NCBI GenBank assembly: GCA_018657385.1
Contig: JABHXF010000048.1
Span: forward strand, 3,681-67,680
Origin: Candidatus Woesearchaeota archaeon
GTDB lineage: Archaea > Nanobdellota > Nanobdellia > Woesearchaeales > DSVV01
DNA: 64,000 nucleotides
Direction of reading: 5' to 3'
How positions within the stretch are numbered: position 1 is the first letter of the stretch; the number at the start of each line of letters is the position of its first letter. This document shows positions 25,159-41,394 of this stretch, piece after piece. The notes under the pieces are model-generated. The model ran no database searches. It had not been told where the DNA came from and worked only from the letters and a program-made list of their open reading frames with translations. Both the position numbers and the translations under genes were made by a program.

Positions 25159-25199
25159 TTTAATTGTATTTGTTAATAATTTATATATGCTAATTTATT

Positions 25200-26195
25200 C
25201 TATGCAGGATTTGTTTTACTTGCCATTTTCTTGATCTCTTCTTCTGGATCAATATCTGTGAATACTAAATTACTAGTGAATTCAAGTCTATCAAACATTT
25301 GATTTTTCTTTGCTCTCCCAATTACTTTAATCATCTCACCAAGTAATTCATTCTTAACTTGCTCAAATGATTCAGTATTAACTCTATATCCTAAAATTTC
25401 ATCATGTGTTTTTTTAAGTAGGTTTTGGAGTTGGTTTTTGAAGAATACAATCCTTATAGTTGCACTACCATCATCTAGAAAAACATTAACAACATAATTA
25501 TAATCTAATTTGTCTTTTCCATGCTCTTGGCATGCTAAACCTTCTTCTGTTTGTTGAAGTTTTTTATTACAAACTGAACATGCTTCAAAAAATCTAATAT
25601 CAAATACCTGGACAATTGTACCTAATAATTCAACATTATTATCATCTTCTGTTAATTCTTTAATTGTTTTTCTTTCTCTTGTGAATTGTTTGACTTCCTC
25701 AATTTTTACATCACTTGGATTAATAATTAATTGTGATTTTGAATCAAGGTGTATTTCAACAAAATTATTATTCTTTTTTGCATTTGCGTCTCTGATTATA
25801 ACTACATCTCCTTCCTTAATATTGTCAAATTCTTTTGTTTGATCTCCCCATAATGTAATTCTTATTTGGCCTGTTTCATCACCAATAAAAAAACTAGCAA
25901 CTTTTCCTGTTGTTTCTCCTCTTTGAAATTCATATAATTCTAATTTTCTTGTAACTTTCCCTTGTGTTTCTAATCCACGCATACTAGCAAAGACTTCGTT
26001 AATCTTAACAACTCCTTTTTGCTCCATTACTTTTACACCTAACTCATTAGCAATTATATGGGCTGCACCATCCTTAGAAATTAAACCTGCAAGCTGTGCC
26101 ATTTTTTTTTCAACTTTATCATCAATCTCAGCTTGTGATAAACCTTTATCTTCAATAATCTTTTTTACAACAACATCATATGGTATATTAAGCAT
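25200..26195 (-). CDS. rpa: Replication protein A (OB-fold ssDNA-binding)
   Basis: GDETGQIRITLW OB fold, CSVC…CQEH zinc finger, LDDGSATIR. Confidence 0.85.
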   Translation of the reverse strand: MLNIPYDVVVKKIIEDKGLSQAEIDDKVEKKMAQLAGLISKDGAAHIIANELGVKVMEQKGVVKINEVFASMRGLETQGKVTRKLELYEFQRGETTGKVASFFIGDETGQIRITLWGDQTKEFDNIKEGDVVIIRDANAKKNNNFVEIHLDSKSQLIINPSDVKIEEVKQFTRERKTIKELTEDDNNVELLGTIVQVFDIRFFEACSVCNKKLQQTEEGLACQEHGKDKLDYNYVVNVFLDDGSATIRIVFFKNQLQNLLKKTHDEILGYRVNTESFEQVKNELLGEMIKVIGRAKKNQMFDRLEFTSNLVFTDIDPEEEIKKMASKTNPA

Positions 26196-26396
26196 AGTAA
26201 ACACCCCTTGTAGATAATAAAATCCTTACATGGATTTATTATATGTATTAATTATATATTTCAGCTATATATTAACTATATATCTTAATTATATGTCTTA
26301 TATTTAAATGAGAAATCCTTGATATTTAAATGGGTTATCATATTCTAACTTATATTATAGAGTATATACTTTCTTAATTTATTCCTTTCTAGGACC

Positions 26397-28838
26397 TTAG
26401 CTTAAACAACCCTGTTCATTATAATGATCTAAGAAACAATTAGCAGGAACACTACCGTGGCCTGCTTTTGTAACCTTAACCTCGGAATCAGGGTAATTAG
26501 GTAATTTAATTGAATCTTCTTGTGTGTTACCTGCATCTTGTTGGCTAGAATAATAAGAATGAATCTCTCCTCTTTTACTTGTTGGTAAGTTCGCAACTGT
26601 TGTACACCAAGTTCCATAACATGCATCAAAATAAATTGTAGATTTAATAGGTAAATGAGGTTCATCTAAAAACCCACCATCAATGTAAATATCTCTTATG
26701 GTTCTTCCACCATTACTGTGTCCCATAAATGAAATAGATGTTGGGTTTTGGTTTAATTCTTGTGTTATTGTTGCAATTGCTTCATCATAGAAACATTTAA
26801 ACTGTGATTCATCTGTTCCATCTCTTTTACCTTTCATCCAATCATGTCCACCATCACCCTTTTCTCCTTTGAATGGTCCAGACTTAATGGTGTATTCTGA
26901 AGAAATATGTTTATCTCCTCCTTTAAACCATACTAAAATAATATCTTTGCCTTGATTATGCAATCCTGAAACTTTTTCTGCTAATTTCTTGTTTTTTACA
27001 TATGATTCAACACCACTCATTTGATGGCCATGGAAATAAAAATATACTTCTGTATTTGATGTGATTGATTTAGGAAGAATAATTCCTTCTGTTCTATCTT
27101 CAAATGGCTCAACTTTGGACTTACATTTTGTTGTATATGTATAAAAATTAATATCAGATGGTATGTTATTAGTTATTTGAGTTAATTCACCTGGTGTTAT
27201 ATCTGTTATAGTTTGTTGTGTTTTTGTTGTAGTATCTGTTTGTTGTTCTATAGTTTTGTCTGGTTGTTTAAGAACATCTTTATCTTCTTTGATTTTCTTT
27301 ATTGTCTCAATATTAACATTCTTTAATGATGGGTCTTTAAAGCCAAGTGCAAATCTATAAATTAATGGTTTGTTTTTAATATCATTGTTTAAATAAACAT
27401 TTAGATTTTCATTTGATTTAGCACAAATTGTATAACTTGCTTTGTTTACATCTTTATCGCAAATTTCTAGATTAAGTTTTGGTGGGAAGTTTACTTCTTT
27501 GTTCTTGTTAATTTCTTTTTTCACACATTCTTCAATAATTCCAGCATTAATTGTAGTTATTTTTTCTCCATTTTCATCTATGTTTTTTTGTTCATGACAT
27601 TTTTCAACTTCTTTTGCAATTAAGAAAGATTTTTCTCTTAATTTTGCATATATGTCTAACTCATGAGTTAATGAAATACTAAAACTAGGATCAATTTGAT
27701 AAATAAATCTATCTTGAAAATCCATTGGTATTAATTCAGGAGTTGATAATTGTTTTGTATATTTTTCATTACCTAAATAATCTTGTAATCCTTTTTCACC
27801 AATTATTAGGCCACCATTACAACCATCAAAACCTTGATATTTTAATGCCTTAAGGACACCTTGTGCATAACCAACTCTGCCAACTGCTGATTTGTCTTTA
27901 ACACTATCAGAAAAGAGATGCATTATTACTTCAAAATCTTCTGTTGTGAGTTCCCACCAATTGAATTTTGAATAATCACCATTATATTTATTTTTTGTAA
28001 TTTCTCTTAATGCAATTTTTAGGGTGCCTTGACCATTATTATAGGCAAATGCTGTTCCCCAATAAAGGTTATGTGCTGGGATCTTATCATATGGTGGCTT
28101 TGATATAATTCCAAGATAAGAATTTAATTTTCCCCTTATATGTTCTGCTCCTGTGAATATTCCATCTTTTGGATTTCCTTTCATAAACTCATTTAGATTA
28201 CATTCACCTGTTTTTTCAAGTTTTTCACAATTTTCAATACTTGTTTGCATTATATTACAATATGCAGTTGAGCTTGATATCGTCCATTTTTCTTTTTCTT
28301 TGTCATAGTAATGACATTTTTTTTGGTCTTCCATACAATTATATTCATTACCTGGACCACCTGCAAACTTACATAATCCGCATCTTCCATTACATAATCT
28401 TTTTACTTTGACTTTTGAATTTGATCCATCTTTAATTGTGTAAGTTCCATAATCAAATGGCCCCCCTGCATTTTCTACTTTCATAATACCTATAATTAAT
28501 TCTTCAGGGATATTATAATGGGCAGAAGCTTCTTTTATATGTTGTTTATATGGTTGTATCTTAGCAAGGAACTTTTTAAACTTTTCTTCATTAAAATCTC
28601 TTCTTACTATTTTTTCAGGAAGATATTCTAAGTGGATCAATTCATTACACTGACCAAGATTAATTGTTTGTTGGTTAGTGGTTGGTTGGGATGGATTATA
28701 AACATTATGACCTGTAATTTTCTCATTGTTATTATTTAAATTAGAAATATTAACAAAAAGCAAAGCTATTACTATACATAAAACCAACATTAAAGCTAAT
28801 GCAAGGCTTTTCTTATCTATTAAATGTTTTGTATTCAT
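26397..28838 (-). CDS. Secreted lytic transglycosylase (SLT/lysozyme fold) fused to C-terminal alpha/beta hydrolase
   Basis: KKS|LALA TM; YKQHIKEASAHYNIPEELIIGIMKVEN, IMQ, AYNNG; YFHG…GHSNGG…FDACY…GH. Confidence 0.75.
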   Translation of the reverse strand: MNTKHLIDKKSLALALMLVLCIVIALLFVNISNLNNNNEKITGHNVYNPSQPTTNQQTINLGQCNELIHLEYLPEKIVRRDFNEEKFKKFLAKIQPYKQHIKEASAHYNIPEELIIGIMKVENAGGPFDYGTYTIKDGSNSKVKVKRLCNGRCGLCKFAGGPGNEYNCMEDQKKCHYYDKEKEKWTISSSTAYCNIMQTSIENCEKLEKTGECNLNEFMKGNPKDGIFTGAEHIRGKLNSYLGIISKPPYDKIPAHNLYWGTAFAYNNGQGTLKIALREITKNKYNGDYSKFNWWELTTEDFEVIMHLFSDSVKDKSAVGRVGYAQGVLKALKYQGFDGCNGGLIIGEKGLQDYLGNEKYTKQLSTPELIPMDFQDRFIYQIDPSFSISLTHELDIYAKLREKSFLIAKEVEKCHEQKNIDENGEKITTINAGIIEECVKKEINKNKEVNFPPKLNLEICDKDVNKASYTICAKSNENLNVYLNNDIKNKPLIYRFALGFKDPSLKNVNIETIKKIKEDKDVLKQPDKTIEQQTDTTTKTQQTITDITPGELTQITNNIPSDINFYTYTTKCKSKVEPFEDRTEGIILPKSITSNTEVYFYFHGHQMSGVESYVKNKKLAEKVSGLHNQGKDIILVWFKGGDKHISSEYTIKSGPFKGEKGDGGHDWMKGKRDGTDESQFKCFYDEAIATITQELNQNPTSISFMGHSNGGRTIRDIYIDGGFLDEPHLPIKSTIYFDACYGTWCTTVANLPTSKRGEIHSYYSSQQDAGNTQEDSIKLPNYPDSEVKVTKAGHGSVPANCFLDHYNEQGCLS

Positions 28839-28843
28839 TTGAT

Positions 28844-30025
28844 TTATTTACTCTCTTTTTTATAATGTGATTCAATGGCTTTATCTATCTCATCATCATG
28901 GTGGCCCTTTCTAATTAATTGCTGCTTTATTTTGGAATAATTTATACCTTGGTTGTGTAATTTATTTATTGTTTCATCTAATTTGTTTGTTTTAGTTTTC
29001 TTGAAAAATTTGAAAAGATTAATAATTATAACAACTAAAATAAACATGGCTAATATTATGAGATACATTTTGATGTTCCCCCCATCTATTATTTGTTCTT
29101 TTGTGTATTTTTCAATTTCTTTTTGGTCTATTTCTTTATCTTCTATCTCATTACTTTCAATTTTACCTTTTTCTACTTCTTCATCAATTACTTCATCAAG
29201 AATTTCATCTTCAATAAACTCATCTACTAAATCTTTATTGTTATTGTCATTATCACTTTCTACATAATCTAGGGCAACACAATAACTATCAATACAACAT
29301 TGTGTGTTATCTTCCATTTCTTGGTATAAACCTTGTTTACATTTTTGTTCAGAATTACATTTAATGCCATCATATTCATACATACAATAATGATTTAAAT
29401 CATTGTAATAACAAACATCTTCATTATCTGGATCATTACATATATTACAATCTTTATCTAGATTATTACAGTCTGGATCACATTTGTTATCTTGGATTAA
29501 ATCACAATAATTATCATTTGTTCCAGTAGGACAATCATTTTGACATGTTAATGAATTTTCATAAACTATAACCTCTTTATTATAACAATCATCTTCTGTG
29601 CAGTATTCACAAACATTATTGTTATTACAGAATTCAATTTGTTTTTCAATAATTACTTTTTCATTCTTGAAAATCTTAATTTGTTTAGTTTTAGAATTAA
29701 ATGAAATTGCTGTTTTATATGTTAAACCTATCTCTTTAACAATTAAATTATTAAACTGATCATAACTATTAATTTGGTATATTGGTTCATCATCAAAATT
29801 ATCCATTATTCCAGTATAAAATGCTGTGTTTTCATCTAATTGGTAATAAAAGTTATTATTATCTAAAACACCAAAATCAACTAATTTTTCTTCCTTTTCA
29901 TTCTGGACATCTTGAATTTCAAAATAAACTAATTCTTCACTAAATATCATAGGTAAAATTAATAATAAAACTAGTAAATGCAGTAAAATACAAATTCTAA
30001 TTGTTTTTATTGTGTTTTTATTCAT
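28844..30025 (-). CDS. Secreted Cys/Asp-rich membrane-anchored protein
   Basis: Signal peptide, CNNNNVCE…TCQNDCPTG…DNYCD…CDPDC repeats, acidic linker, C-terminal TM and cytoplasmic tail. Confidence 0.7.
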   Translation of the reverse strand: MNKNTIKTIRICILLHLLVLLLILPMIFSEELVYFEIQDVQNEKEEKLVDFGVLDNNNFYYQLDENTAFYTGIMDNFDDEPIYQINSYDQFNNLIVKEIGLTYKTAISFNSKTKQIKIFKNEKVIIEKQIEFCNNNNVCEYCTEDDCYNKEVIVYENSLTCQNDCPTGTNDNYCDLIQDNKCDPDCNNLDKDCNICNDPDNEDVCYYNDLNHYCMYEYDGIKCNSEQKCKQGLYQEMEDNTQCCIDSYCVALDYVESDNDNNNKDLVDEFIEDEILDEVIDEEVEKGKIESNEIEDKEIDQKEIEKYTKEQIIDGGNIKMYLIILAMFILVVIIINLFKFFKKTKTNKLDETINKLHNQGINYSKIKQQLIRKGHHDDEIDKAIESHYKKESK

Positions 30026-30071
30026 TTTTTTGTTTTTATTGTGTTTTGTTTATTTTTATTCTACTTGCTTT

Positions 30072-32306
30072 TTATTCTTTACATTGGTTATCATCTATTG
30101 GGCAATAAATTCTAACATGATAATGGTCTTTATGGCTTTTCCAATGTTTAAGTTTTGAAAATGCTTTTTTAATTATTGTTTGGTCTGGTTCACTTTGTTG
30201 TGCATATTCTTTTAATTTATTAATCAATTGCTGGTCAAGGTAAATTGCTTTAATGTTTCCTGATGCTAGCAAAGCTTTGATTAATATCCAGTTTGCATTT
30301 GCATCAAAATATTTTATTTTTGAACCTGTTGCATCTTCAAAATCATTGTAAACTTTATTGTTCTTATTGAAATATAAACCCATATCCACATCTCTACCAC
30401 TTTGATGAGATGCATGACCACTTAATTTTCCACCTTCTTTATCACTTAAATCATGAATATCTATTCTTGCACCTATTGCTTTTGCTGTTATACAACCTGC
30501 TTTCTCTATCATATTAACTAATTCAATAGTCCCATAAAATCTATTTCTTGAATGTTTATGTGAATAATAATGTGTTGTTTCTTTTTTAATAGTAGCAGGA
30601 TTCTTTAACATACCATTGGATGTATGACCAACTGACTCTGAGTTAAATGGGAATTGTGAAATTTGACAGCCAGAATCATCTATTGCAGGATATGCCACAT
30701 CAATAGTTGATTGTGTGATTAAATTTGCTTGATCTTGTTTATAACCATTTGGATAGTTTGATGATCTATCAATAACATTCTTGATAATCTCTTGTTTAAA
30801 TTCTTCTGAAGCAATTTTAGGAGCTCCTGCACCTAAATCTAAAGGAGTTACTTTGTAACCATGAACATTAGCTTGTTTATCAATGTCAATACTGAATAAA
30901 AGTGCCTTTCTTGCTTCTCCTCCTGTGTTTAATTTTGATATTTGAGAATTTTCGATTCCCTTTCCTGACAAAAGATTACCTAAACTATATACAATTACTT
31001 TTTGTTTGCTATTTTTTTCAATAAACTCAATCCCTTGTACACGATGTGGGCCATGACCTATTACTAAGTCTGCACCTGCATTTATAGCTGCTCTTGAGCC
31101 TGAGATATGGTCTTGGGGAGTATCATCACTTGATGTTCCCCAATGTAATGATGCTATTACAATATCTGCTCCTGCTTGTCTTGCTGATGTTATGTCTTGT
31201 TGAAGTTTGTTTTGACCAAATATATTTACTAATTCATTAACATTTCCACAATATTGTTTATCATGGCTGCCTTGTTTACTATGGCTATTAACATATTCAG
31301 TATAACAAACAAACCCAACTTTAATTCCATTATCAGCTGTTACAATTGTTTGTGTATTTTGTCCAGGTTCACTAGAAGTTTTAGTTGCACCACAATATGC
31401 AATATTGTTTTGTTCAAGATAACTTATTGTGTCTTGGACTCCTTGCTTTCCAAAATCACCTGCATGATTATTTGCTAATGTTACAACTGCTATATTGCTT
31501 TGTTTCATATAATCTGCATGTTTGGGCAGAACTCTAAAATGGTATATTTCTTTTAGTTTGCCATCTATCATATATTGTTGATATGGTAATTCTGTAATTA
31601 AAGTTTCAAGGTTAATAAAGACTAAAGCATTTTGGAATTCTTGTAATATATTACTAAATGGGTTTGTTGTTTGATCTAATGTTGTTGCATCTCCACCAAA
31701 TACTAATTTTATAGTTTCACCTGAAGAAACAGTCATTGTTGTGGCTTGTTCTTGTTTAATTTGGCTTTCAAAAGAGAAATATGTTGGAACATCTACTTTA
31801 TCTCCTTCAATTGCAATTTCATCTTTTGCAACACCAATAATGTTATTGTCTATAAATTTGTATTCATAAAAATTTTGAGGGATATTAAAATGTTCATCTA
31901 AGTTAAAATAACTATCAAAACCTTCTAAATATTTGTAAAATTGTGTATTAAACATAGTTTTAAAATCTGTTTTATAATTTTTTGGTAAACATAACTTGCC
32001 ATCAACATACCAATAAGGGACTCCATTAAATTCTCCACATTCTGTACTGGCAATGCCGCCCTTTAATGCAAGATTATATTCTGTATCCCTAACAGCATGT
32101 TTTGCACTAACATCAACATAATTAACTAAATTATCTCCTTCTTGTGCTGTTTTCATTACTTCTGTGGCAGCTTCACCCATTGTTCTTGTTTTGCCTTCTA
32201 AATCTACAATTATTAACATTAGCATAATCATTGAAAATATAACAACCCCTAATAAAATTATCATGAACTCATGTCCTGCTTTTTTATTTTTTATTTGGTT
32301 CTTCAT
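30072..32306 (-). CDS. Pilin-like protein with CapA (PGA_cap) metallophosphoesterase and MepA-type murein endopeptidase domains
   Basis: KKAG|HEF TM; GD, INLE, LANNHAGDFG, SLHWG, GHGPH, YSLGN; SVGHTSNGML, YGT, DLS..EGG, GHASHQSGRDVD, HKDHYHVR. Confidence 0.8.
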   Translation of the reverse strand: MKNQIKNKKAGHEFMIILLGVVIFSMIMLMLIIVDLEGKTRTMGEAATEVMKTAQEGDNLVNYVDVSAKHAVRDTEYNLALKGGIASTECGEFNGVPYWYVDGKLCLPKNYKTDFKTMFNTQFYKYLEGFDSYFNLDEHFNIPQNFYEYKFIDNNIIGVAKDEIAIEGDKVDVPTYFSFESQIKQEQATTMTVSSGETIKLVFGGDATTLDQTTNPFSNILQEFQNALVFINLETLITELPYQQYMIDGKLKEIYHFRVLPKHADYMKQSNIAVVTLANNHAGDFGKQGVQDTISYLEQNNIAYCGATKTSSEPGQNTQTIVTADNGIKVGFVCYTEYVNSHSKQGSHDKQYCGNVNELVNIFGQNKLQQDITSARQAGADIVIASLHWGTSSDDTPQDHISGSRAAINAGADLVIGHGPHRVQGIEFIEKNSKQKVIVYSLGNLLSGKGIENSQISKLNTGGEARKALLFSIDIDKQANVHGYKVTPLDLGAGAPKIASEEFKQEIIKNVIDRSSNYPNGYKQDQANLITQSTIDVAYPAIDDSGCQISQFPFNSESVGHTSNGMLKNPATIKKETTHYYSHKHSRNRFYGTIELVNMIEKAGCITAKAIGARIDIHDLSDKEGGKLSGHASHQSGRDVDMGLYFNKNNKVYNDFEDATGSKIKYFDANANWILIKALLASGNIKAIYLDQQLINKLKEYAQQSEPDQTIIKKAFSKLKHWKSHKDHYHVRIYCPIDDNQCKE

Positions 32307-32308
32307 TT

Positions 32309-32893
32309 TTAGTGGCAATTAATTGTTTCTAATGGTGCGTTTTTATGAATGCTTCGCATACATGAACATGTATTTATTGTTACCTTTAATGCATTGTTTT
32401 CTGGTAAAGGTAAATATGCTGTTTCTTCATTTGTGCTTTTTGAACACCAATTATATGTTAATATTTCTTCCCCCTTTATTGTTTTTACATCTAAATCAAA
32501 ACATTCACCAACATAATAATCACTTGATGTAGATTCTAAATTATAATTTTCAATAAAATTGGTAATTAAGCTACATGTTGCTTTGTTTTGTTCTTCTATT
32601 GATGAAAATAATTTTGCTTTTTCTCTAGAATAATAATGTTGAATTAATAGATCCCCAAAAGTTACATCTTCATATGAAGGTGTTTTTAACATTGTTAATA
32701 ACTCTCTTTTTGTCTGAATATTATCTAAATTAACATTAATTTTTTCTTCTTTTTTCTCTCCCACTAACATATTTACAACAAACAAGCTAATAGTAATAAT
32801 CAAAACAATTGATACAGTAATTAAAATATCTGTAGCTAATGTTTCCTGTGCCTTCTTATTTTTCCTTATTTTTCTAAATTTGTTTTTATTCAT
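32309..32893 (-). CDS. Pilin-like protein (class III signal peptide)
   Basis: KKA|QETLATDILITVSIVLIITISLF. Confidence 0.7.
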   Translation of the reverse strand: MNKNKFRKIRKNKKAQETLATDILITVSIVLIITISLFVVNMLVGEKKEEKINVNLDNIQTKRELLTMLKTPSYEDVTFGDLLIQHYYSREKAKLFSSIEEQNKATCSLITNFIENYNLESTSSDYYVGECFDLDVKTIKGEEILTYNWCSKSTNEETAYLPLPENNALKVTINTCSCMRSIHKNAPLETINCH

Positions 32894-32915
32894 TTTTTGA
32901 GTTTATTTGTTTTTT

Positions 32916-33512
32916 TTATGATTTTGGACTTAATACGGTCATATGCAAGGTTGCAGGATAATTTACAACTTTTAACATGCCATTTTCAACATTCTCTTTT
33001 CTTAAAACTACATTTATTGCTTTTTCTACTCTAATTGCATTTTGTTGTGAACCACTTGTCCAACCTGAAACAACTAAATATTCTTCAAAACTTTTCTTGT
33101 TATAATAAAACATTTTTAATTGCTCTAAATCTGTATCTTGAATATGGTCAGGAAAGGTTAATGAAAAATTTGATGTAATTAATGGATAATCTCCAAAATC
33201 AAATGCCTTGTTTAATCTTTTTTCTATTTCATTTGGATCAACAATATCTGCAAAATTAATGATTCCAGGATAAACTCTCCCTGTATCTTGATTTCTATAA
33301 CTTAAACCATTTTTTGAATAAAGTAATTGTTCAACAAACAATTCAACTTCTTCGTTTTGAATATTGGTATCTTTTTCAATGAATAAAAATACCATGAATG
33401 CAATTGAAAACAAAACTAATCCTAAAACAAATATTCTAAACATTACCATCATTAATTGAAAGTATGCCACCATTGATTTTTTGTTCTTAAATTGTTTTTT
33501 TGTTTTTGTCAT
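32916..33512 (-). CDS. Pilin-like protein (class III signal peptide)
   Basis: KKS|MVAYFQLMMVMFRIFVLGLVLFSI; LLYS.NGLSY…RVYPGII. Confidence 0.65.
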   Translation of the reverse strand: MTKTKKQFKNKKSMVAYFQLMMVMFRIFVLGLVLFSIAFMVFLFIEKDTNIQNEEVELFVEQLLYSKNGLSYRNQDTGRVYPGIINFADIVDPNEIEKRLNKAFDFGDYPLITSNFSLTFPDHIQDTDLEQLKMFYYNKKSFEEYLVVSGWTSGSQQNAIRVEKAINVVLRKENVENGMLKVVNYPATLHMTVLSPKS

Positions 33513-33593
33513 GCTTATTTTTTCCTATGTTTTTTCTTTTTTTTATGTTTGTTTATTCTTTGTTTAGTTAATTCTATGTTGTTTTTTTATTTT

Positions 33594-36209
33594 TTATTCG
33601 CCAGTTAATGAAAAATGCATATAATCTTTTTGATTAGTTTCCCAGTCTCCTCCCCAAATCCATCCTATCTGATCCATAATTACATATGCATATGAATTTT
33701 TTGTTATTGTTCCTTCAATCTCCTCTTGTCTTTCAGGATTTTTTTTACCTGCAATTGATAATGTGCATTTTTCAACATTCCATTTTTTGCACTTATTGTA
33801 TAATCCATTATAATCACGATTAATATCTATTGCAATTCCATATGGGTGTTCACCAAAATCTTTGCCTTTATTATAAGTACGACCTTCCCTAAATCCATCT
33901 ATTTCATAAATAGGGAATCCAGAATTAACAATATTTTGTAATGCTGCTTCTACTAACTTTTTATATTTCCAGCAAACTTCGATTGTATGGCCTGCAATTG
34001 TAATAGTTTCTTGATCTTCTCTACATAATGTACAACCAGAATCATGAATCTCTTCTCCAGTAATTGTTGAGTATGATTTCTTTTTTAGACCTTTATCATA
34101 ATATGTGCATGTTTTAGGTATTGTTCTTGTTTTTTCTGTTTCAATTGTTGATTCTTGTGAAAGTTCTGGTTGAATTAATGGTTCTAGTAAAATAGGATTA
34201 TTACTTTCCATACTAAAAAATTCTTTTGGAATGTTGCCGTGTTTTGTTTTTGTGTATATGTAATTAACATTGCTTTTATCCTTCAAAGATTTACCTTGTT
34301 CATCTGTGTCTGTATCTGGTTTTACAATAATATTAAATTCTACATTAGGATTATTATTTATTGCTGTTTCATATGCTTTTTGAGCCCAATTACCATAACT
34401 AGCATCTAAAAAATCAATCCTATTAACTTTAAAGCCAGATTCAGTAATTCTATATAACGGTACACCACCACCACTATGTCCTTTGATTGTAATTGAACCT
34501 ACTTTTACTCTTGAATCTAATTGACTTAAAACATCTAAAACATTTTGATGTAATATGTCTATACTTTCATCTTTAGCTGGATACATCCAATAACTATCAT
34601 AACCTGTACCAGTACAACCTCCTGCTCTAGGGCCTCCACTAAATGGATAAACTAAAATTACATTTCTTTTTGGATCTTTTCCAAGTTTTTCAGTTTCTTC
34701 TAATACTTCTTTTAATATTTCTAATCCTGAATCATGTGTAGATCCTTGATCTTTTGGGCATTTATTATATGAATCCTTGTTTGGATTAGTATACCATTCC
34801 TTTTTTTCACATAAACTTGTTCCTGTTATACAAGCAGGAACTTGTTCATTAAGTAAATAACCATGGCTGCCATGGAAATAATAAATTATTTCAAATTCTC
34901 TACCACAATCAGAATTTTCAGGAATTACAACTGCAACATCTCTATTTGCATTACCACTTAACTTTCCAACCCATGTTTTACCTTTGATCTTTGCAGTTTC
35001 TTCAACTAACGTTTGTTTAGGTGTTCCTCCAACTAATGATTTGTAGCCATCACTATTACATAAAATACTTGTTTGAACAGATACTTTTGATGCTTCATAT
35101 TTTTCAATTCCTTTTTTAATTGCTTGTGCTATCTTTGATTTAGCATCTTCTGTGTATAATGGGTTGTTTTCAAGATTTAAATTTCCTAATTCAAGTTTGA
35201 TAGCAAGTTTACTTTTTGTATTAGTGGTATCAATTGTTTGTTGATTTACAAATAAAGTAGGATCTTGTTGTTGTGTGGTTGTTAATACTTTTTTATCACT
35301 TATTTCTGGGAATACTTTTATGATCTCATCTAATATGGTTGTTGCAAGGAAACTGCTTTGTTCATTGTTTTCAGGAACATATGCATAAATTGGATTGCTA
35401 GTACTTCCTCCACTATTATCAAGAGTTTCTAGGCTCATTCCAATGCTTAATATTAAATCAGCTTTTTTAGGTATTAAGTTTAATCTTTTTTCCATTGTAA
35501 AATCTTGTTGTGGTTGTTTTTGTGTTCTTGCTTGAATAATTGTTTTTTCTAATGAAAGAAGTTGAGCAAGATTAGCAGTGATCTCATAACTTAAGAAATG
35601 TTCTGCTCCTGCTTTTCCTTGTTTTAAATCTTGTATTCCTGAACTAAAATGACCACCTACTGCATCTATTACTAATAACTTAATTGGTTGTACATTTGAT
35701 GTAAGCTTATATTCTGTAGAAGGAGATTCTTGAATTAATGCAGTATTATCATGTTTTAAGCCAACCATTCCTTTTGCATGTATTGAAAATGCATTATTAA
35801 AATTAGTTAATGTAAATCTTGTTGCATTTGTTAAAATATAAAGCCCATGTTCTAAATTGTTATTGTAAAAATAAGGGTAACTTAGTTTTGAGTAGAAATT
35901 TTCAGAAATTGTAATTTGGTTATTGTAAAATTCAAAATTATAAGTATCTTCTTCATCAAACACATGTAAAAAATCAAACATACTATCTCCTGCTTTTTTT
36001 GGAACATACTGGTATGCAACATTACCTGGCACAGATTGTATTGTATTACTAAGTAAACTTAGATCTCTTGTAATTAATTTTTTCTCATATAGTTTATTAT
36101 CTTCTAAGGAATAAAGGTAAAAAGATACCCCTCCAAATACAACTAAACCTAGAATTAGTTCTATGATTAATAGCTTCGCTATACTAATACCCCTTTTATT
36201 TTTAAACAT
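33594..36209 (-). CDS. Pilin-like protein with degenerate amidase_3, alpha/beta hydrolase and M15 peptidase domains
   Basis: KRG|ISI TM; VIDAVGGH…E…RLN…ADLILSI…LELGNL…IAQAIKKGI; YFHG…GHSGGG…LDASY…H; EHPYGIAIDIN…WGGDW…KDYMHF. Confidence 0.78.
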   Translation of the reverse strand: MFKNKRGISIAKLLIIELILGLVVFGGVSFYLYSLEDNKLYEKKLITRDLSLLSNTIQSVPGNVAYQYVPKKAGDSMFDFLHVFDEEDTYNFEFYNNQITISENFYSKLSYPYFYNNNLEHGLYILTNATRFTLTNFNNAFSIHAKGMVGLKHDNTALIQESPSTEYKLTSNVQPIKLLVIDAVGGHFSSGIQDLKQGKAGAEHFLSYEITANLAQLLSLEKTIIQARTQKQPQQDFTMEKRLNLIPKKADLILSIGMSLETLDNSGGSTSNPIYAYVPENNEQSSFLATTILDEIIKVFPEISDKKVLTTTQQQDPTLFVNQQTIDTTNTKSKLAIKLELGNLNLENNPLYTEDAKSKIAQAIKKGIEKYEASKVSVQTSILCNSDGYKSLVGGTPKQTLVEETAKIKGKTWVGKLSGNANRDVAVVIPENSDCGREFEIIYYFHGSHGYLLNEQVPACITGTSLCEKKEWYTNPNKDSYNKCPKDQGSTHDSGLEILKEVLEETEKLGKDPKRNVILVYPFSGGPRAGGCTGTGYDSYWMYPAKDESIDILHQNVLDVLSQLDSRVKVGSITIKGHSGGGVPLYRITESGFKVNRIDFLDASYGNWAQKAYETAINNNPNVEFNIIVKPDTDTDEQGKSLKDKSNVNYIYTKTKHGNIPKEFFSMESNNPILLEPLIQPELSQESTIETEKTRTIPKTCTYYDKGLKKKSYSTITGEEIHDSGCTLCREDQETITIAGHTIEVCWKYKKLVEAALQNIVNSGFPIYEIDGFREGRTYNKGKDFGEHPYGIAIDINRDYNGLYNKCKKWNVEKCTLSIAGKKNPERQEEIEGTITKNSYAYVIMDQIGWIWGGDWETNQKDYMHFSLTGE

Positions 36210-36349
36210 GATAATATATTTATATATTTATAGATTTATATAGTTTTTGTTATATATTACTAATTATAATATAACTTAATTTATAATTATAATCTTTTAT
36301 ATATTTCATTTAATATTAAATCTATTAATTAAAGAACATTCTTTACTAT

Positions 36350-38278
36350 CTATTTTGCTTTGAAGAAGCTAGTTGATTCTTTATGTAAGCAAAGCTCCCC
36401 ACTTTCTAATTTTACAATACTTAAATCTTTATCTTGTGGCCCAATGATTATTTGATCAATATTTGAATTATAATTTCCTAAATGATCAACATAACAATCA
36501 ATATTTATGGGATATTTTTTTTGACCAATTGTTTTGTATAATTTTATTGTTTCTTTCTCAGGTCCGTTATATTCTAAATATGCTATTCCTTCATCAATTC
36601 TTATTATCCATCCCTTGCTTTTTTCTTTTGTACTTGCCACTAATGTGTTTACAACAGGTTCATTACAACTAAGTTTGTTGCTTTTTACTGATTCTTGAAT
36701 CTTATTATTAAGAATTTCTAATTTTATTTTCTTTCCTCCTTGATTAATTTCATCATCTTCATCATAAATCTCAATTATTTTTTCTTCAGTTAAACTAAAT
36801 AAATTAACAAAACTATGGCTCTTATCCTTTATAAAAATATGTGGGGTAAAATATAATAAATATCTTCCATCTTCTTCAACTTTGAAAATATTAATATTTC
36901 TAACATCAAAATCATCTAAAATATATGTGTTTGGGCCTTCTTGATTGGCAATTATTTCAGAAATAATTGTTTCTTGTCCCTTCTTTATTTGGATATATGG
37001 TTTTATATTATAATCAACTCTTATTTCATAAATATAATTGTTTAGTTGTTCTGTAACATATGCATCATCTGTATAGTCTGAATCATAATCATCTTCTTGG
37101 GTAGTAGAATCTGTGTTTGTTTCTTCTTCCTCATCATCTGTATATGGTAATTCATAATTATATCTTCCTTCCCCATCTGCATATTCAATCATTTCATTTA
37201 CTTTTTCAATTCTATCTTCCCAAAATGGTATGTTCTCTTCATTTTCTCCTGATGGGAATTCCATGCAATAGCCTGCTTCAACTGAATATGTTGAATCAAT
37301 AGTCATTAAGTAGTCTGTCTGCAAATTATCATTGATTTGGTCACAAAAAATAAGATGTTGTTCAGGTTCTTCTAATTTTAATCTGAACATTTCAATTAAA
37401 TTGTGTGAATATGGTCCATCGCTTTCTAACCACTTGAATTTTCCAGCAGAAGTTTCAAGGGCATAAGTTTTAATTTTTTTAGGGATTCCTTGTTCTAATT
37501 CATATACTTCAATAAGGTTCTCTTCTATTTCATAATTGCTTGTTATAGGATAATAATAAATTCTTGGTTTTAATTCTAATCCTTCATATATATTAATTGC
37601 TTCTTGATTAAGTTCATCAGTAAGACCATGTGTTTCTAAACTACATTTTTGTATTGCATTGTTTAGATTTTCTATTGTTTTTAAGGATTGTTTTTCATCT
37701 AATCCTGCAAGACAATCACAGTATCCATGTCTACATGGTCCTGCATCACATAATGCTACTTCTTCATTAGCTCTTCTTATCATTAGACTAAAAAATTTCT
37801 TTTTATCTTCGTTATATTCTTTTTGATAAAGTTCTACATATGGTGCTTTGTTCCATCTATACTGAGAAAAACTAAGAACCATATTATCTACATTAGACTT
37901 AACTTTTTTACAAATAATTGGTGTTTCACATTCATCTAATTTTCCTTCACATAAACATAAACAATCTGAATTTATACATTCTTGATCCTCAATATTTATT
38001 TTATTTTTAGCACTCATGCTATTTACTATTGAATATTCTTCTGGATCACCAAGATCAATTGAATATTGTAAAATCGGGAAATGTGGTGGGAGATTTTGGA
38101 TGGTGTCAATTAATCCTAAAAAATTGCTTTTAACATTTTCTTCATTATTATCTTGAAAGAATATATTATAAATTGCAGCAGCAAGAAAAAAGATTACCAC
38201 CAAAACAATTAATCCTCTAATTAAATTAACTAAGAATTCTAAATCTATTAATCCTTTTTTGTACCTCTTTTTTGACAT
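36350..38278 (-). CDS. Large pilin-like protein (class III signal peptide), Cys-rich N-terminal part, acidic linker
   Basis: KKG|LIDLE (Glu at +5) + TM; CLCLC motif. Confidence 0.7.
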   Translation of the reverse strand: MSKKRYKKGLIDLEFLVNLIRGLIVLVVIFFLAAAIYNIFFQDNNEENVKSNFLGLIDTIQNLPPHFPILQYSIDLGDPEEYSIVNSMSAKNKINIEDQECINSDCLCLCEGKLDECETPIICKKVKSNVDNMVLSFSQYRWNKAPYVELYQKEYNEDKKKFFSLMIRRANEEVALCDAGPCRHGYCDCLAGLDEKQSLKTIENLNNAIQKCSLETHGLTDELNQEAINIYEGLELKPRIYYYPITSNYEIEENLIEVYELEQGIPKKIKTYALETSAGKFKWLESDGPYSHNLIEMFRLKLEEPEQHLIFCDQINDNLQTDYLMTIDSTYSVEAGYCMEFPSGENEENIPFWEDRIEKVNEMIEYADGEGRYNYELPYTDDEEEETNTDSTTQEDDYDSDYTDDAYVTEQLNNYIYEIRVDYNIKPYIQIKKGQETIISEIIANQEGPNTYILDDFDVRNINIFKVEEDGRYLLYFTPHIFIKDKSHSFVNLFSLTEEKIIEIYDEDDEINQGGKKIKLEILNNKIQESVKSNKLSCNEPVVNTLVASTKEKSKGWIIRIDEGIAYLEYNGPEKETIKLYKTIGQKKYPINIDCYVDHLGNYNSNIDQIIIGPQDKDLSIVKLESGELCLHKESTSFFKAK

Positions 38279-38309
38279 TTTTAATTTTAATCCCTAAGCT
38301 TAGAATAAT

Positions 38310-38591
38310 TTAAGTTACTGTTTGTTCACCTTGTTCTTCACAATGTATTTCTTTTCCATTAACTGTAATTGGTTCATTATATATTCCATCTTCACCACAA
38401 ATGATATTTTCTTTTTTTGTAAAATCACATCTGCATTGTGGATGAACTATCCATGGTTCAAGTTTATCTTTTTGTTCATTTGCCCAAGCAGTTGATCTTG
38501 CATAAAAAACTATTACTCCTCCCACTAATATCATAATTAATAAAAATAAACCAAGGGTTTGTGGTATTGAAAGTTGTGCTTTTTTTCTCAT
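38310..38591 (-). CDS. Small pilin-like protein
   Basis: KKA|QLSIPQTLGLFLLIMILVGG; 4 Cys. Confidence 0.7.
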   Translation of the reverse strand: MRKKAQLSIPQTLGLFLLIMILVGGVIVFYARSTAWANEQKDKLEPWIVHPQCRCDFTKKENIICGEDGIYNEPITVNGKEIHCEEQGEQTVT

Positions 38592-38608
38592 TTATTCCAC
38601 CTGTATTA

Positions 38609-38983
38609 TTATTGTTTCTTTTTACAACATCTATTACTACCAGTGCAATCTGCTGGTCCTAGATCATCAATAGATTCACATGTACTTTCACAAAAACCAC
38701 CGCTTGCTTTACAATTGCTGTAACAACATACCTCATCTGCTTTTGAACATTTGAAATCTATTTTTTGTGAGTAATACCATTTTGAATTATCTTCGCCTGG
38801 ACAATTATCTTTAGCAACACATGCTCCTCCTGGCTTTGATTCACAACCACTTATACTCATGGAAAATAATGATATCTTTCCAGAAAATACAATTATTAAT
38901 ACAACTACAACTACTAATACAATAACAGCTCCTGCTACCATGTTTAAACTTAAACCTTGAGCTTTTTTATTCATTTTGTACAT
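38609..38983 (-). CDS. Small Cys-rich pilin-like protein
   Basis: KKA|QGLSLNMVAGAVIVLVVVVVLIIVF; two C..GG.C…C…C…CC repeats. Confidence 0.75.
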   Translation of the reverse strand: MYKMNKKAQGLSLNMVAGAVIVLVVVVVLIIVFSGKISLFSMSISGCESKPGGACVAKDNCPGEDNSKWYYSQKIDFKCSKADEVCCYSNCKASGGFCESTCESIDDLGPADCTGSNRCCKKKQ

Positions 38984-39047
38984 GTTATCACCTTTTAATC
39001 TTCTTTTCTTGAATAATTTTGATTATTATTTGTTTTATAAATCTGGA

Positions 39048-39605
39048 TTATCCTGTTAACTTAATTGATAATTGTGCATAATAATTACTATCAGGATAAT
39101 TTTGTTTATATTCCTTAACTAATTCATTTGCTTCTTCACTCATACCTTTTTTAATATAAATACTTGTTAAATCTGAATATGCTGTATCAATCATTTGTTG
39201 TTGTGCATTTGGTTTTTTCTGAATGAAAAGTCTATAATGTAACATTGCCTCATCATATTTATTAGTTTCAAAAAAAGATTTAGCTATATAATAACGTTGA
39301 GTATCAACAATATTGTCTGAGCCTGGAGAATTAATTAATTCTTGGTATTTTGTAGCTGCTGAATCATAATTATGTTGTTGTGCATATAATTTTCCTTCAT
39401 TTGCTAATGTGATGAAGTGTTGTTCTTGTTGTTTTGATTCTGCTAATTGATCTTCATAATCTAATGGTGTGTCTACAATATATTTTGTGATTCCAGGCAA
39501 CCAATTGACTAAAATCAGATAACTTAAACCTGCAATAGCTATAATGCTTAAAACTAATCTAGCTGTTTTTCCTAACATTAATTCTTGGGCTTTTTTATTT
39601 CTCAT
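39048..39605 (-). CDS. Pilin-like protein with TPR domain
   Basis: KKA|QELM TM; YDSAATKYQELINSP, YYIAKSFFETNKYDEA…, YPDS TPR motifs. Confidence 0.75.
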   Translation of the reverse strand: MRNKKAQELMLGKTARLVLSIIAIAGLSYLILVNWLPGITKYIVDTPLDYEDQLAESKQQEQHFITLANEGKLYAQQHNYDSAATKYQELINSPGSDNIVDTQRYYIAKSFFETNKYDEAMLHYRLFIQKKPNAQQQMIDTAYSDLTSIYIKKGMSEEANELVKEYKQNYPDSNYYAQLSIKLTG

Positions 39606-39653
39606 TTTAATTTTGTTTAACTTTGAATTTATTATCGGATTTGCTTTTTTATA

Positions 39654-39800
39654 TTATCCTAACATAAGTACATTTAATACATCACCTGCTTTTGGAATAA
39701 TCAACCAAGCTAATAAAGAAGCAATTGCTAATAAAACAATAACTTTCCAAATAAGATCAAAAGATTTACTTATCATAAATGCTTTTTTGCTTTTTCTCAT
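39654..39800 (-). CDS. 48-aa pilin-like peptide, first gene of the cluster, not in ORF track
   Basis: GAGG upstream; MRKSKKA|FMISKSFDLIWKVIVLLAIASLLAWLIIPKAGDVLNVLMLG*. Confidence 0.65.
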   Translation of the reverse strand: MRKSKKAFMISKSFDLIWKVIVLLAIASLLAWLIIPKAGDVLNVLMLG

Positions 39801-39922
39801 TAATATGCCTCTTTTTTGTATTAATATAAATATCTATTAAATATGTAATTATTCCTATATATTTAACATATATATTTTGTTATTTAAAAAGATTTATAAA
39901 TATACCTCTTGTTTTTAGGTAT

Positions 39923-41263: not shown

Positions 41264-41268
41264 TTAAG

Positions 41269-41394
41269 GTTGTGAGTTCTGAGTAAGTAGTTATGAGTTG
41301 GTTGTCAGTTAATTAGTTATTAGTGAACTCAGTAACCACATAACTCCTTACTGATAACCAACTCATGACCCAAAACTCATTACTCATTACAATT
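41269..41394. repeat. Degenerate heptamer-like repeats arranged as a long inverted repeat (hairpin) downstream of rnj
   Basis: GTTATGAGTTGGTTGTCAGT (41290-41309) pairs with ACTGATAACCAACTCATGAC (41350-41369); flanking TGAGT/ACTCA units. Confidence 0.65.

What the first reader, a model, noticed from the sequence alone, without database searches (positions are those of the whole stretch)
26397..39800. Pilin-like operon armed with peptidoglycan hydrolases in a DPANN archaeon: candidate cell-wall-drilling pilus for attacking bacteria
Seen: 11 co-oriented, tightly packed genes. Ten begin with a basic KK/KR-(A/G/S) site followed by a hydrophobic helix (KKA|FM, KKA|QE, KKA|QG, KKA|QL, KKG|LIDLE, KRG|IS, KKS|MV, KKA|QE, KKAG|HE, KKS|LA). 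The three large distal ones carry SLT, MepA, M15 and amidase_3-like domains plus two serine hydrolases and a CapA phosphoesterase. Established: this N-terminus is the archaeal class III (PibD/FlaK-processed) signal; these families cut the glycan strand, cross-links, stem peptide and MurNAc-L-Ala bond of bacterial murein; archaea lack murein; characterised DPANN symbionts have archaeal hosts. Inference: small pilins form a filament or tip that displays a near-complete wall-degrading kit for contact-dependent parasitism, predation or scavenging of bacteria. No pilus ATPase, TadC or prepilin peptidase is in this window.
Basis: partly seen in the sequence, partly recalled or inferred. Interest (0 to 1): 0.92.

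Follow-up and report, generated by a model that had tools for sequence, protein, structure and literature searches.

The report
Wall-cutting pilin-like gene cluster in Woesearchaeota
A tiny archaeon carries a conserved row of pilus-type surface-protein genes, several fused to enzymes that cut bacterial cell walls, which points to a life spent attached to or feeding on bacteria.

Summary
Window 26397-39800 (minus strand) has 11 tightly packed genes. Ten start with a short basic leader ending in K/R-K/R-[A/G/S], followed by a hydrophobic helix. The large genes carry Peptidase_M74, Peptidase_M15_4 and PGA_cap (all above Pfam cut-offs), an SLT-like domain, and two paralogous Ser-hydrolase-like domains. 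The Amidase_3-like domain has lost a zinc-binding His and is probably inactive.

New here: the cluster is not peculiar to this genome.
- Its core (g6 N-domain, g7, g8 position, g9 N-domain) is single-copy and syntenic across Woesearchaeota. The g7 profile matched 104 of 151 genomes of the order and 95 of 121 of the phylum sample.
- The g9 and g6 carriers are fused to different murein hydrolases in different lineages. Among 44 g9 orthologs: M23 11, SLT 9, M74 4, M15_4 2, NlpC/P60 1. Among 46 g6 orthologs: Amidase_3 11.
- An M23 or SLT hit lies within 5 kb of g7 in 44 of 102 genomes.

The genome shows no MraY or PBP genes. It does have one prepilin peptidase and one PilB-type ATPase, both elsewhere.

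Action on bacterial murein is well supported. Assembly into a pilus is only inferred: no known pilin family or fold matched. Large SLT proteins in this clade are already published; the pilin-like, cargo-swapping cluster was not found in the papers searched.

The parts
39654..39800 (-). g1, 48 aa, leader ending KKA followed by a hydrophobic helix
   Evidence: A 52-aa ORF of the same type sits at the same place in G001.
39048..39605 (-). g2, 185 aa, KKA|Q N-terminus plus TPR repeats
   Evidence: TPR_6 9e-09, TPR_2 4.6e-07. Orthologs in G001 and G011.
38609..38983 (-). g3, 124 aa, small Cys-rich protein with KKA|QGLSLN N-terminus; candidate major subunit
   Evidence: 60% identical duplicated orthologs in G001. 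Nearest Atlas cluster is a Woesearchaeota family of 1377 members. No PDB sequence match.
38310..38591 (-). g4, 93 aa, KKA|Q N-terminus
36350..38278 (-). g5, 642 aa, KKG|LIDLEF N-terminus, no known domain
   Evidence: Orthologs in G001 and G011.
33594..36209 (-). g6, 871 aa. Conserved carrier N-domain (aa 1 to about 180), then a degenerate Amidase_3-like domain, an alpha/beta-hydrolase-like domain and M15_4.
   Evidence: The N-domain was found in 46 of 48 sources. The C-terminal fusion was seen only in this genome.
35100..35612 (-). g6 Amidase_3-like domain (aa 200-370), probably inactive
   Evidence: 25.6 bits against a cut-off of 27. Gly stands where orthologs have the second zinc His.
34110..35057 (-). 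g6 alpha/beta-hydrolase-like domain (aa 385-700) with GHSGG
33609..33857 (-). g6 Peptidase_M15_4 domain (aa 785-867)
   Evidence: 49.6 bits against a cut-off of 25.
32916..33512 (-). g7, 198 aa, most conserved core protein of the cluster
   Evidence: AlphaFold model at pLDDT 90.3 with no PDB fold match.
32309..32893 (-). g8, 194 aa, KKA|QE N-terminus; a position-conserved small protein
30072..32318 (-). g9, 748 aa (744 aa from the ATG at 32306). Conserved carrier N-domain (aa about 1-200), then PGA_cap and M74.
30963..31673 (-). g9 PGA_cap (CapA-like metallophosphoesterase-fold) domain, aa 216-452
   Evidence: 1.4e-51; matches PDB 8gq9. NCBIfam epimerase_MslH 1.4e-13, far below its cut-off.
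30078..30635 (-). g9 Peptidase_M74 (MepA-like) domain, aa 562-747
   Evidence: 3e-21; aligns to E. coli MepA 1tzp with both His/Asp motifs kept.
28844..30025 (-). g10, 393 aa. Sec-type signal, Cys-rich and acidic regions, C-terminal membrane helix.
   Evidence: Homologs found in 7 of 48 sources.
26397..28838 (-). g11, 813 aa. KKS plus helix N-terminus, SLT-like domain (aa about 95-280, 27999-28556), alpha/beta-hydrolase-like domain (aa 546-813, 26400-27203).
   Evidence: Orthologs pass the SLT cut-off.

Best explanation
This is the local copy of a cluster conserved across the Woesearchaeota lineage. The cluster encodes surface proteins with archaeal class III (type IV pilin-like) N-termini.

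Shown:
- A four-gene core (g6 N-domain, g7, g8 position, g9 N-domain) is kept in order next to the RPA gene across the order.
- The g9 and g6 proteins act as carriers, with different murein hydrolase modules grafted on in different lineages.
- In this genome the load is a MepA-like LAS endopeptidase, a VanY-like M15_4 peptidase, an SLT-like lytic transglycosylase, a CapA-like domain and two Ser-hydrolase-like domains.

Inferred:
- The genome's single A24 prepilin peptidase cuts the leaders.
- The hydrophobic helix then holds the proteins either in the membrane or in a short type IV filament built by the single PilB-type ATPase.
- Either way the enzymes are presented outward to the wall of a bacterium in contact. 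They locally open its murein for attachment, access to cell contents, or harvest of wall fragments.
For: Signal.
- Over 47 sources, 373 of 391 cluster genes have an N-terminal hydrophobic segment. Of these, 321 have [KR][GAS] just before it. Position -1 is G or A in 297 of 321, position -3 is K in 242, position +1 is Q in 75, and the median leader is 7 aa.
- In the rest of G000 only 78 of 380 such ORFs have the motif, with S commonest at -1.

Conservation.
- The g7 profile matched 104 of 151 order genomes, one place per genome, and 95 of 121 of the phylum sample, including 17 genomes of other orders.
- In 48 sources the g6 N-domain was found in 46, g7 in 47 and the g9 N-domain in 43, in a constant order.

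Cargo.
- 44 g9 orthologs: M23 11, SLT 9, M74 4, M15_4 2, 3D 2, NlpC/P60 1.
- 46 g6 orthologs: Amidase_3 11.
- Neighbouring large proteins: SLT 6 of 32, and Glucosaminidase 2 and VanY 2 of 55.
- Within one family the g9 cargo differs: G000 has PGA_cap+M74, G001 has M74, G011 has M15_4.
- An M23 or SLT hit lies within 5 kb of g7 in 44 of 102 genomes, against about 1-2 expected by chance.
- In the control genomes M23 and SLT ring only in bacteria.

Active sites. M74 aligns to MepA with its metal and His motifs kept. The SLT Glu aligns to MltC on a weak match, E 0.41.

No own murein. There is no Transpeptidase or MraY hit and only one Mur_ligase_M hit.

Machinery. G000 has one A24 peptidase and one 762-aa T2SSE ATPase. 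Five near-complete relatives have the same pair.
Against: - No cluster protein matched a known pilin family. None of the 10 window proteins did. None was among the 25 families shown of 121 for the 150 small cluster proteins; Flp1_like appeared in 2 at E 0.08. g3 has no PDB sequence match at E up to 10.
- Confident models of g7 (pLDDT 90.3) and the g9 N-domain (80.9) begin with long helices. They have no Foldseek match to any solved structure at E<=0.001, pilins included.
- The ATPase and peptidase lie on other contigs. In five near-complete relatives they lie 66-200 kb from the cluster.
- The T2SSF platform hit is under its cut-off (21.8 against 25.2 bits).
- A 2026 survey of archaeal type IV filaments rates such scattered systems in this superphylum as probable remnants (PMC13705601, passages read).
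- SLT in g11 is under the Pfam cut-off. Amidase_3 is degenerate in this genome.
- No expression, host or activity data exist.
- The genome is 90.4% complete, so missing murein-synthesis genes are not proof of absence.
Confidence: 0.6

Rival explanations
1. Plain membrane-anchored ectoenzymes. The N-termini are uncleaved signal anchors obeying the positive-inside rule. The proteins sit in the archaeal membrane as an enzyme array without PibD processing or a filament. They still act on bacterial murein at the contact zone.
For: - No pilin family or pilin fold was detected.
- The assembly genes are unlinked to the cluster.
- g11 orthologs have a weaker motif.
- Many other large surface proteins of G000 start the same way.
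Against: - The strong preference for G/A at -1, K at -2 and -3, and Q/E/D at +1 is not expected of plain anchors and is missing from the genome background.
- The cluster holds many 46-130-aa proteins that are little more than the N-terminal helix plus a small domain, as pilins are.
- The prepilin peptidase and a PilB-type ATPase are retained even in 0.8-Mb genomes.
Confidence: 0.25
2. Nutrient scavenging rather than attack. The same surface enzymes digest detrital murein or released wall fragments to supply amino sugars and amino acids, with no specific bacterial host.
For: - The enzyme spectrum is broad and includes GH3, NAGPA and GDSL esterases in relatives.
- The DNA occurs in many seawater and marine metagenome runs.
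- No host is known.
Against: - Cell-anchored enzymes with no recognised murein-binding module or uptake system in the cluster suit contact better than bulk digestion.
- M23, LAS and SLT endo-acting enzymes are typical of lysis and wall-opening tools.
- Nothing here discriminates firmly between the two readings.
Confidence: 0.1
3. Self-directed wall remodelling. The hydrolases make room in the archaeon's own murein-like or pseudomurein wall for a surface machine, as specialised lytic transglycosylases do in bacterial secretion and pilus operons.
For: - Bacterial type IV secretion, flagellar and pilus loci often carry their own SLT enzymes (recalled knowledge, not from a call).
- One Mur_ligase_M gene exists in G000.
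Against: - There is no Transpeptidase and no MraY-type transferase hit in G000. The MraY family rings in 2 of the 4 archaeal control genomes (M. jannaschii, S. acidocaldarius), so the search can find archaeal members.
- The Mur-ligase family also rings in M. jannaschii and H. volcanii, which are not known to have murein (recalled), so the single Mur-ligase hit is no sign of a murein wall.
Confidence: 0.03
4. Assembly artefact. Bacterial DNA carrying murein hydrolases has been joined to an archaeal contig.
For: The hydrolase domains are bacterial-type families.
Against: - GC is even at 0.26-0.30 across the region.
- The same gene order between PCNA/RNase J and RPA genes is seen in other genomes.
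- Contigs of four runs not flagged as the source match with 0 differences and bridge both borders: 25197-26960, 25041-26889, 38909-41649 and 37788-40907.
Confidence: 0.01

Closest known systems
[quoted passage not shown] 2021, PMC8204110, fam00969 in 'Module 98'; Vigneron et al. 2022, PMC9723730; passages read)
   Same: Same clade, same SLT domain and same inference of attachment to or attack on bacteria. g11 and its 1280-aa ortholog in G001 are most likely members of that protein family.
   Different: The passages I read describe single large SLT proteins. They do not describe a cluster of pilin-like genes, the class-III-like N-termini, the conserved g6/g7/g9 core, or the exchange of M23, M74, M15, amidase and NlpC/P60 modules on it. 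Their supplementary tables could not be opened and may list some of these families under Module 98.
Archaeal peptidoglycan hydrolases that kill bacteria (Strock et al. 2025, PMC12352652; passages read)
   Same: Archaea without murein encode bacterial-type murein hydrolases aimed at bacteria. In that work the activity was shown experimentally for a haloarchaeon.
   Different: Those are catalytic-plus-binding-domain proteins with Sec or Tat signals, or none (67 of 210 had a known signal). The terms 'pilin', 'pili' and 'class III' occur 0 times in that text. Here the enzymes sit on pilin-like carriers within a conserved multi-gene cluster.
Modular type IV pilins of bacteria (Raynaud et al. 2021, PMC8179133; passages read)
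   Same: The principle is the same: a functional module grafted onto an N-terminal pilin module for display, probably at the filament tip, in many architectures.
   Different: That survey covers bacteria, is defined by the IPR012902 prepilin motif, and concerns mainly binding modules. The word 'hydrolase' occurs 0 times in the text. Here the host is an archaeon, the carrier domains match no known pilin family, and the cargo is murein-cutting enzymes.
Bindosome and other class-III-signal substrate-binding proteins of archaea (PMC13705601, 2026; passages read)
   Same: Non-pilin functional proteins carry class III signal peptides. They are proposed to be mounted on a type IV filament base encoded elsewhere in the genome.
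   Different: The cargo there is sugar- or substrate-binding proteins next to ABC transporters. 'Hydrolase' and 'peptidoglycan' occur 0 times in that text. It reports type IV filament systems as sparse and probably remnant in this superphylum.
Type IV pili of episymbiotic Saccharibacteria (PMC9894109, PMC11623550; search listing and abstracts only)
   Same: An ultrasmall, genome-reduced episymbiont uses type IV pili to find and hold a bacterial host.
   Different: These are bacterial pili with canonical pilins. No hydrolase-bearing pilins are mentioned in the abstracts I saw.

Membership tests
Archaeal class III signal peptide / type IV pilin-like proteins | Short basic leader ending in [KR] at -2 and G/A at -1, directly before a hydrophobic helix of about 20 residues. 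The rule is as quoted in PMC3387779; the exact FlaFind pattern is recalled, not run. | tested here: met
   321 of 373 cluster proteins have it, with G/A at -1 in 297, against 78 of 380 in the genome background with S commonest at -1.
Archaeal class III signal peptide / type IV pilin-like proteins | Match to a curated pilin or class-III-signal profile | tested here: not met
   10 window proteins at E<=0.01, none; 150 small cluster proteins at E<=0.1, no pilin family among the 25 shown of 121; Flp1_like in 2 at E 0.08; only ComGC and ComGF hits at E 0.13 and 0.024, far below cut-offs.
Archaeal class III signal peptide / type IV pilin-like proteins | Pilin fold: long N-terminal alpha-helix packed on a beta-sheet, similar to solved pilins | tested here: inconclusive
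   Models of g7 and the g9 N-domain start with helices of 30-37 residues followed by alpha/beta parts. Foldseek found no PDB match at E<=0.001.
Archaeal class III signal peptide / type IV pilin-like proteins | Prepilin peptidase, assembly ATPase and platform protein present | tested here: met
   These are in the genome, not in the cluster. A24 peptidase at C40 (46.3 bits). T2SSE ATPase at C32 (60.4 bits). The T2SSF hit is under its cut-off. The same pair is present in 5 of 5 near-complete relatives.
Archaeal class III signal peptide / type IV pilin-like proteins | Leader actually cleaved, and subunits polymerised into a filament | not testable with these tools
   Needs protein chemistry or cryo-ET.
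Peptidase M74 (MepA, LAS metallopeptidase) | Profile match, plus the H-x6-D and H-x-H zinc and catalytic motifs | tested here: met
   Pfam 76.6 bits against 25. The alignment to 1tzp keeps GHASHQxGxDVD and HxxHxHVR. The NCBIfam equivalog score of 84.6 is far below 272, so this is not an ortholog of E. coli MepA.
Peptidase_M15_4 (VanY-like) | Profile match and the H/D/H zinc ligands | tested here: met
   Pfam 49.6 bits against 25. EHPYGIAID and DYMHF are read directly from the translation; the ligand assignment is recalled.
SLT / family 1 lytic transglycosylase | Profile match above cut-off, catalytic Glu and the AYNxG motif | tested here: inconclusive
   g11 scores 18.4 bits against 21.3. The Glu in VEN aligns to the ES of MltC, and AYNNGQG is present, at E 0.41. 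Orthologs or positional equivalents score 25.1, 27.6 and 54.5 bits.
Amidase_3 (MurNAc-L-Ala amidase) | H, E, H zinc ligands and catalytic Glu | tested here: not met
   25.6 bits against 27. In the alignment of 24 orthologous domains G000 has Gly at the second His and a displaced first His; 6 of 24 are fully canonical. 11 of 46 g6 orthologs pass at E<=0.001, best 4.4e-19.
PGA_cap (CapA/PgsA) | Profile match; any role in cleaving murein | tested here: met
   The profile is met at 175.9 bits against 27. A role in murein breakdown is not established for this family and was not tested. The nearest solved relatives are the 8gq9 group.

The most novel reading that the evidence does not exclude
Nearly all Woese- and Pacearchaeota carry one dedicated type IV filament. 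Its four-protein tip complex (g6-g7-g8-g9) bears exchangeable murein hydrolases. This would be a host-penetration organelle, implying that this very large DPANN clade lives mainly on bacteria rather than on archaea. Cargo swapping would then track the wall chemistry of the bacterial host.
Probability: 0.3. Interest if true: 0.9.

Novelty: new variant of a known kind. Interest (0 to 1): 0.78.

Why it matters
No member of Woesearchaeota has a known host, and all characterised DPANN symbionts live on archaea. This cluster is single-copy and spread across the order. Its variable parts are almost only murein-cutting enzymes. That gives a concrete molecular handle on the question of who these archaea live on.

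It defines testable proteins: the g9, g6 and g11 domains on sacculi. It offers a marker gene (g7) for surveys. It also makes a prediction, that cargo type should follow the wall type of co-occurring bacteria.

It would extend the 'modular pilin' idea to archaea and to enzymatic cargo. It also questions the view that type IV filament genes in this superphylum are remnants.

Tried and rejected
I re-sent it with a 4-row alignment. That gave 4 loci, all titled Candidatus Woesearchaeota.
- The first domain-propagation script timed out. I re-ran it with HMMER alignments.
- Single-linkage clustering of g9 C-termini failed to separate the cargo types. I therefore have counts per family, not the union per protein.
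- Complex prediction on the soluble parts of the g6 N-domain, g7 and the g9 N-domain returned 'no answer' (score 0.04, mark 0.32). This is no evidence either way.
- Foldseek gave no assignment for g7 or the g9 N-domain.
- phmmer against PDB found nothing for g6 or g3.
- The ESM Atlas gave only unnamed bacterial clusters and esterase-type leads for the g6 hydrolase-like domain. For g3 it gave only Woesearchaeota hypothetical clusters.
- Pfam found nothing in the second pilin-like cluster on contig C49 beyond a weak EF-hand hit.
- The look-up of sequencing runs listed no RNA holder, so nothing can be said on expression.
- Contigs of the four runs laid are short. None spans the whole stretch.
- Literature: the searches found no paper describing murein hydrolases on archaeal pilin-like carriers. 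The Module 98 family list of PMC8204110 and Table S2 of PMC12352652 may overlap with these proteins.
- The count of 104 of 151 includes G000 and the unpublished genome G126. G126 was not fetched and was left out of the co-location count (102 genomes).
- The 40 loci were picked from the list mainly for lying more than 10 kb from a contig start, not by their gene content.
- 39 SLT matches were not listed, so 44 of 102 is a lower bound.

Full report
**What is there.** The window is archaeal DNA at about 28% GC. It lies on contig C16 of a 1.54-Mb genome in 60 contigs, 90.4% complete. Relatives found with a protein of the locus are titled Candidatus Woesearchaeota.

Between an RPA-like gene (25200-26204) and RNase J-like and PCNA genes (39923-42287) lie 11 minus-strand ORFs, g1 to g11. 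Gaps between them run from a small overlap to 140 bp. Ten start with a basic leader ending in K/R-K/R-[A/G/S] followed by a hydrophobic helix. g10 instead has a Sec-type signal and a C-terminal helix.

**Domains in this genome.**
- Pfam gives PGA_cap (175.9 bits) and Peptidase_M74 (76.6) in g9.
- It gives Peptidase_M15_4 (49.6) and a sub-threshold Amidase_3 (25.6 against 27) in g6.
- It gives a sub-threshold SLT (18.4 against 21.3) in g11, and TPR repeats in g2.
- g3, g4, g5 and g7 have no family at E<=0.01. g8 has only a sub-threshold ABC2_membrane_3 hit (17.8 against 31.6 bits) and g10 only two sub-threshold hits.
- The C-terminal parts of g6 and g11 are paralogous (E 6e-5) with aligned GHSxGG, DAxYG and HG motifs. 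They resemble esterase-type alpha/beta hydrolases in the ESM Atlas, which is a lead only.

**Are the enzymes intact?**
- The M74 domain aligns over 190 residues to E. coli MepA (1tzp) and keeps both His/Asp motifs.
- In the weak match to MltC, the SLT catalytic Glu and the AYNxG motif are in place. Orthologs or positional equivalents of g11 in three relatives pass the SLT cut-off at 25.1, 27.6 and 54.5 bits.
- The Amidase_3-like domain is different. In an alignment of 24 orthologous domains, six are fully canonical. G000 and its nearest relatives have lost the second zinc His (Gly in G000) and have a displaced first His.
- The 'amidase' is therefore probably not catalytic here. PGA_cap has no established murein-cutting role.
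- The kit covers the glycan strand and peptide bonds plausibly, but not the MurNAc-L-Ala bond.

**The cluster is a lineage trait.**
- A search with g6 found only its first 375 residues or so in relatives: 25 of 27 genomes of the same family and 39 of 61 overall. The alpha/beta-hydrolase+M15 tail is thus a local fusion.
- Fetching the neighbourhoods showed the whole order g2-g3-g4-g5-g6-g7-g8-g9-g10-g11 in the same genus and in a second genus. It showed the g6-to-g9/g10 part in more distant genomes, again ending at the RPA-like gene.
- In two genomes the cluster runs on directly from a second set of pilin-like genes. In G000 that set sits on contig C49.
- A g7 profile matched 104 of 151 genomes sampled across the order, one place per genome.
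- A 47-row g7 profile matched 95 of 121 genomes of the phylum sample, including 17 from other orders of the class.
- In 47 fetched loci plus the window, iterative HMMs found the g6 N-domain in 46 of 48, g7 in 47 and the g9 N-domain in 43. The g9-type M74 and the g11-type SLT were each found in 4. PGA_cap, the hydrolase-like domain and M15 of g6 were found only in the window.
- Clusters have a median of 8 genes (range 4-21). An RPA-like gene follows in the same run in 30 of 47.

**Cargo swapping.**
- Pfam on the 44 g9 orthologs gave Peptidase_M23 in 11, SLT in 9, M74 in 4, M15_4 in 2, 3D in 2, and NlpC/P60, Peptidase_M15, VanY, Phage_lysozyme2 and Lysozyme_like in 1 each. It also gave fn3 in 4.
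- Of 46 g6 orthologs, 11 have Amidase_3, best 4.4e-19.
- Of 32 other large proteins downstream of g7, 6 have SLT, 3 NAGPA, 2 Metallophos, 1 GH3 and 1 a GDSL esterase.
- Of 55 large proteins upstream, 2 have Glucosaminidase and 2 VanY/M15.
- Even within one family the g9 cargo differs: PGA_cap+M74 in G000, M74 in G001 and M15_4 in G011.
- Genome-wide six-frame searches found M23 in 74 and SLT in 95 of 151 order genomes. In the control genomes both families ring only in bacteria.
- In 44 of 102 genomes with g7, an M23 or SLT hit lies within 5 kb of g7, where about one or two would be expected by chance. This is a lower bound. Many contigs are short, 39 SLT matches were not listed, and other hydrolase families were not counted.
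- The recognised enzymatic content of the cluster is therefore almost entirely directed at murein.

**Are these pilins?** The sequence signature is strong.
- Of 391 cluster genes up to g9 in 47 sources, 373 have an N-terminal hydrophobic segment. Of those, 321 have [KR][GAS] just before it.
- Position -1 is G or A in 297 of 321, position -3 is K in 242, position +1 is Q in 75 and E or D in 57. The median leader is 7 residues.
- Outside the two clusters in G000 the motif occurs in 78 of 380 such ORFs, with S commonest at -1 and a hydrophobic +1.
- This fits the published rule that positions -2, -1 and +1 matter and that a basic -2 is typical of archaea (PMC3387779, passages read).
- Many members are proteins of 46-130 residues that are little more than the helix plus a small domain.
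- G000 has one A24 prepilin peptidase and one PilB-type ATPase of 762 aa, followed by a 726-aa protein with no family. It has a sub-threshold T2SSF hit. The second T2SSE hit is a KH-domain ATPase.
- Five near-complete relatives, down to 0.8 Mb, each have one peptidase and one ATPase with a 764-789 aa open frame.

Against the pilin reading:
- No cluster protein matched a curated pilin profile, and g3 matched no PDB sequence.
- The confident models of g7 and the g9 N-domain start with long helices but match no solved fold.
- The machinery genes lie 66-200 kb away.
- The complex prediction gave no verdict.

So 'class-III-like N-termini' is shown. 'Pilus' is inferred.

**Not the archaeon's own wall, and not a chimera.**
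- G000 has no Transpeptidase hit and no MraY hit. It has a single Mur_ligase_M hit, from a family that also rings in M. jannaschii and H. volcanii.
- GC is even across the region and synteny with archaeal flanks recurs.
- The stretch is held by 20 marine or seawater metagenome runs from 17 studies.
- In four runs not flagged as the source, identical contigs tile it and bridge both borders.

**Mechanism.** The likeliest reading is as follows. Sec inserts the proteins. The A24 peptidase removes the short leader. The N-terminal helix then keeps them either in the membrane or in a short type IV filament. In such a filament the always-present g6-g7-g8-g9 set could play the part that four minor pilins play at bacterial pilus tips. 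That analogy comes from PMC8179133 and from recalled knowledge.

The hydrolase modules then face outward. They can open the murein of a bacterium in contact: M74, M23 and M15 cut peptide bridges and stems, and SLT cuts glycan strands. What follows is open; it could be anchoring, access to cytoplasm or harvest of fragments.

The main rival keeps everything except processing and polymerisation, giving a membrane-anchored enzyme array.

**Comparison and novelty.** Large SLT proteins of Woese- and Pacearchaeota and the idea that they target bacteria are in print (PMC8204110, PMC9723730). So is proof that some archaeal murein hydrolases kill bacteria (PMC12352652). Class III signals on non-pilin cargo are known for binding proteins (PMC13705601), and modular pilins are known in bacteria (PMC8179133).

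In six searches and the passages read I did not find the following:
- the conserved pilin-like cluster itself;
- its carrier proteins;
- the exchange of murein hydrolase modules on them.

I rate it a new variant of known kinds, with high interest because it bears on the unknown hosts of a very large archaeal clade.

Noticed in passing
G000 contig C49:5564-18135 (locus L005 565-13136): A second run of seven co-oriented genes with the same kind of N-terminus (820, 2226, 156, 360, 172, 199 and 92 aa). Pfam gave no hit beyond a weak EF-hand. In G005 (L028) and G013 (L031) the orthologous genes lie directly upstream of the g6-g9 core, so the two clusters of G000 are probably one system split in two.
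   Followed up: partly
window 17363-21148 (-), 5894-6814 (+), 6867-7799 (+): More proteins with K/R-G/S plus helix N-termini lie in the same window, including a 1261-aa one. Elsewhere in G000 several large proteins share a KRG/KKG-x-IT-x-F-I-I start: C33:35501, C57:4205 and C37:13593.
   Followed up: no
G000 C49:23983-27276 and C55:82171-82905: Further murein-hydrolase-type genes lie outside the cluster. One is an SLT hit in a 1097-aa ORF about 6 kb beyond the C49 pilin-like run. The other is an M23 hit in a 244-aa ORF. Neither shows the class-III-like start in my ORF calls.
   Followed up: partly
window 30042-32736: Contigs in runs X12, X13 and X15 (depth about 18-20, against about 6 for the main form) join 30042 to 32736 with 24 other letters between. 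That form would lack g9 and part of g8. It may be a strain with other cargo or a chance match of AT-rich contigs.
   Followed up: no
window 28319-28935 and 39425-40041: Summed contig depth jumps to 50-84x in three of four runs, against 5-8x elsewhere. These short stretches may be shared with more abundant relatives.
   Followed up: no
G000 C16:89721-90119 (locus L011 5029-6855, outside the window): The second T2SSE hit is a 608-aa ATPase with KH domains, not a pilus ATPase. A 699-aa transglutaminase-like protein is encoded next to it.
   Followed up: partly
G000 C44:20465-21796: This is the only Mur_ligase_M hit in the genome (60.1 bits). Whether it is a FolC-type or a Mur-type ligase was not examined.
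   Followed up: no
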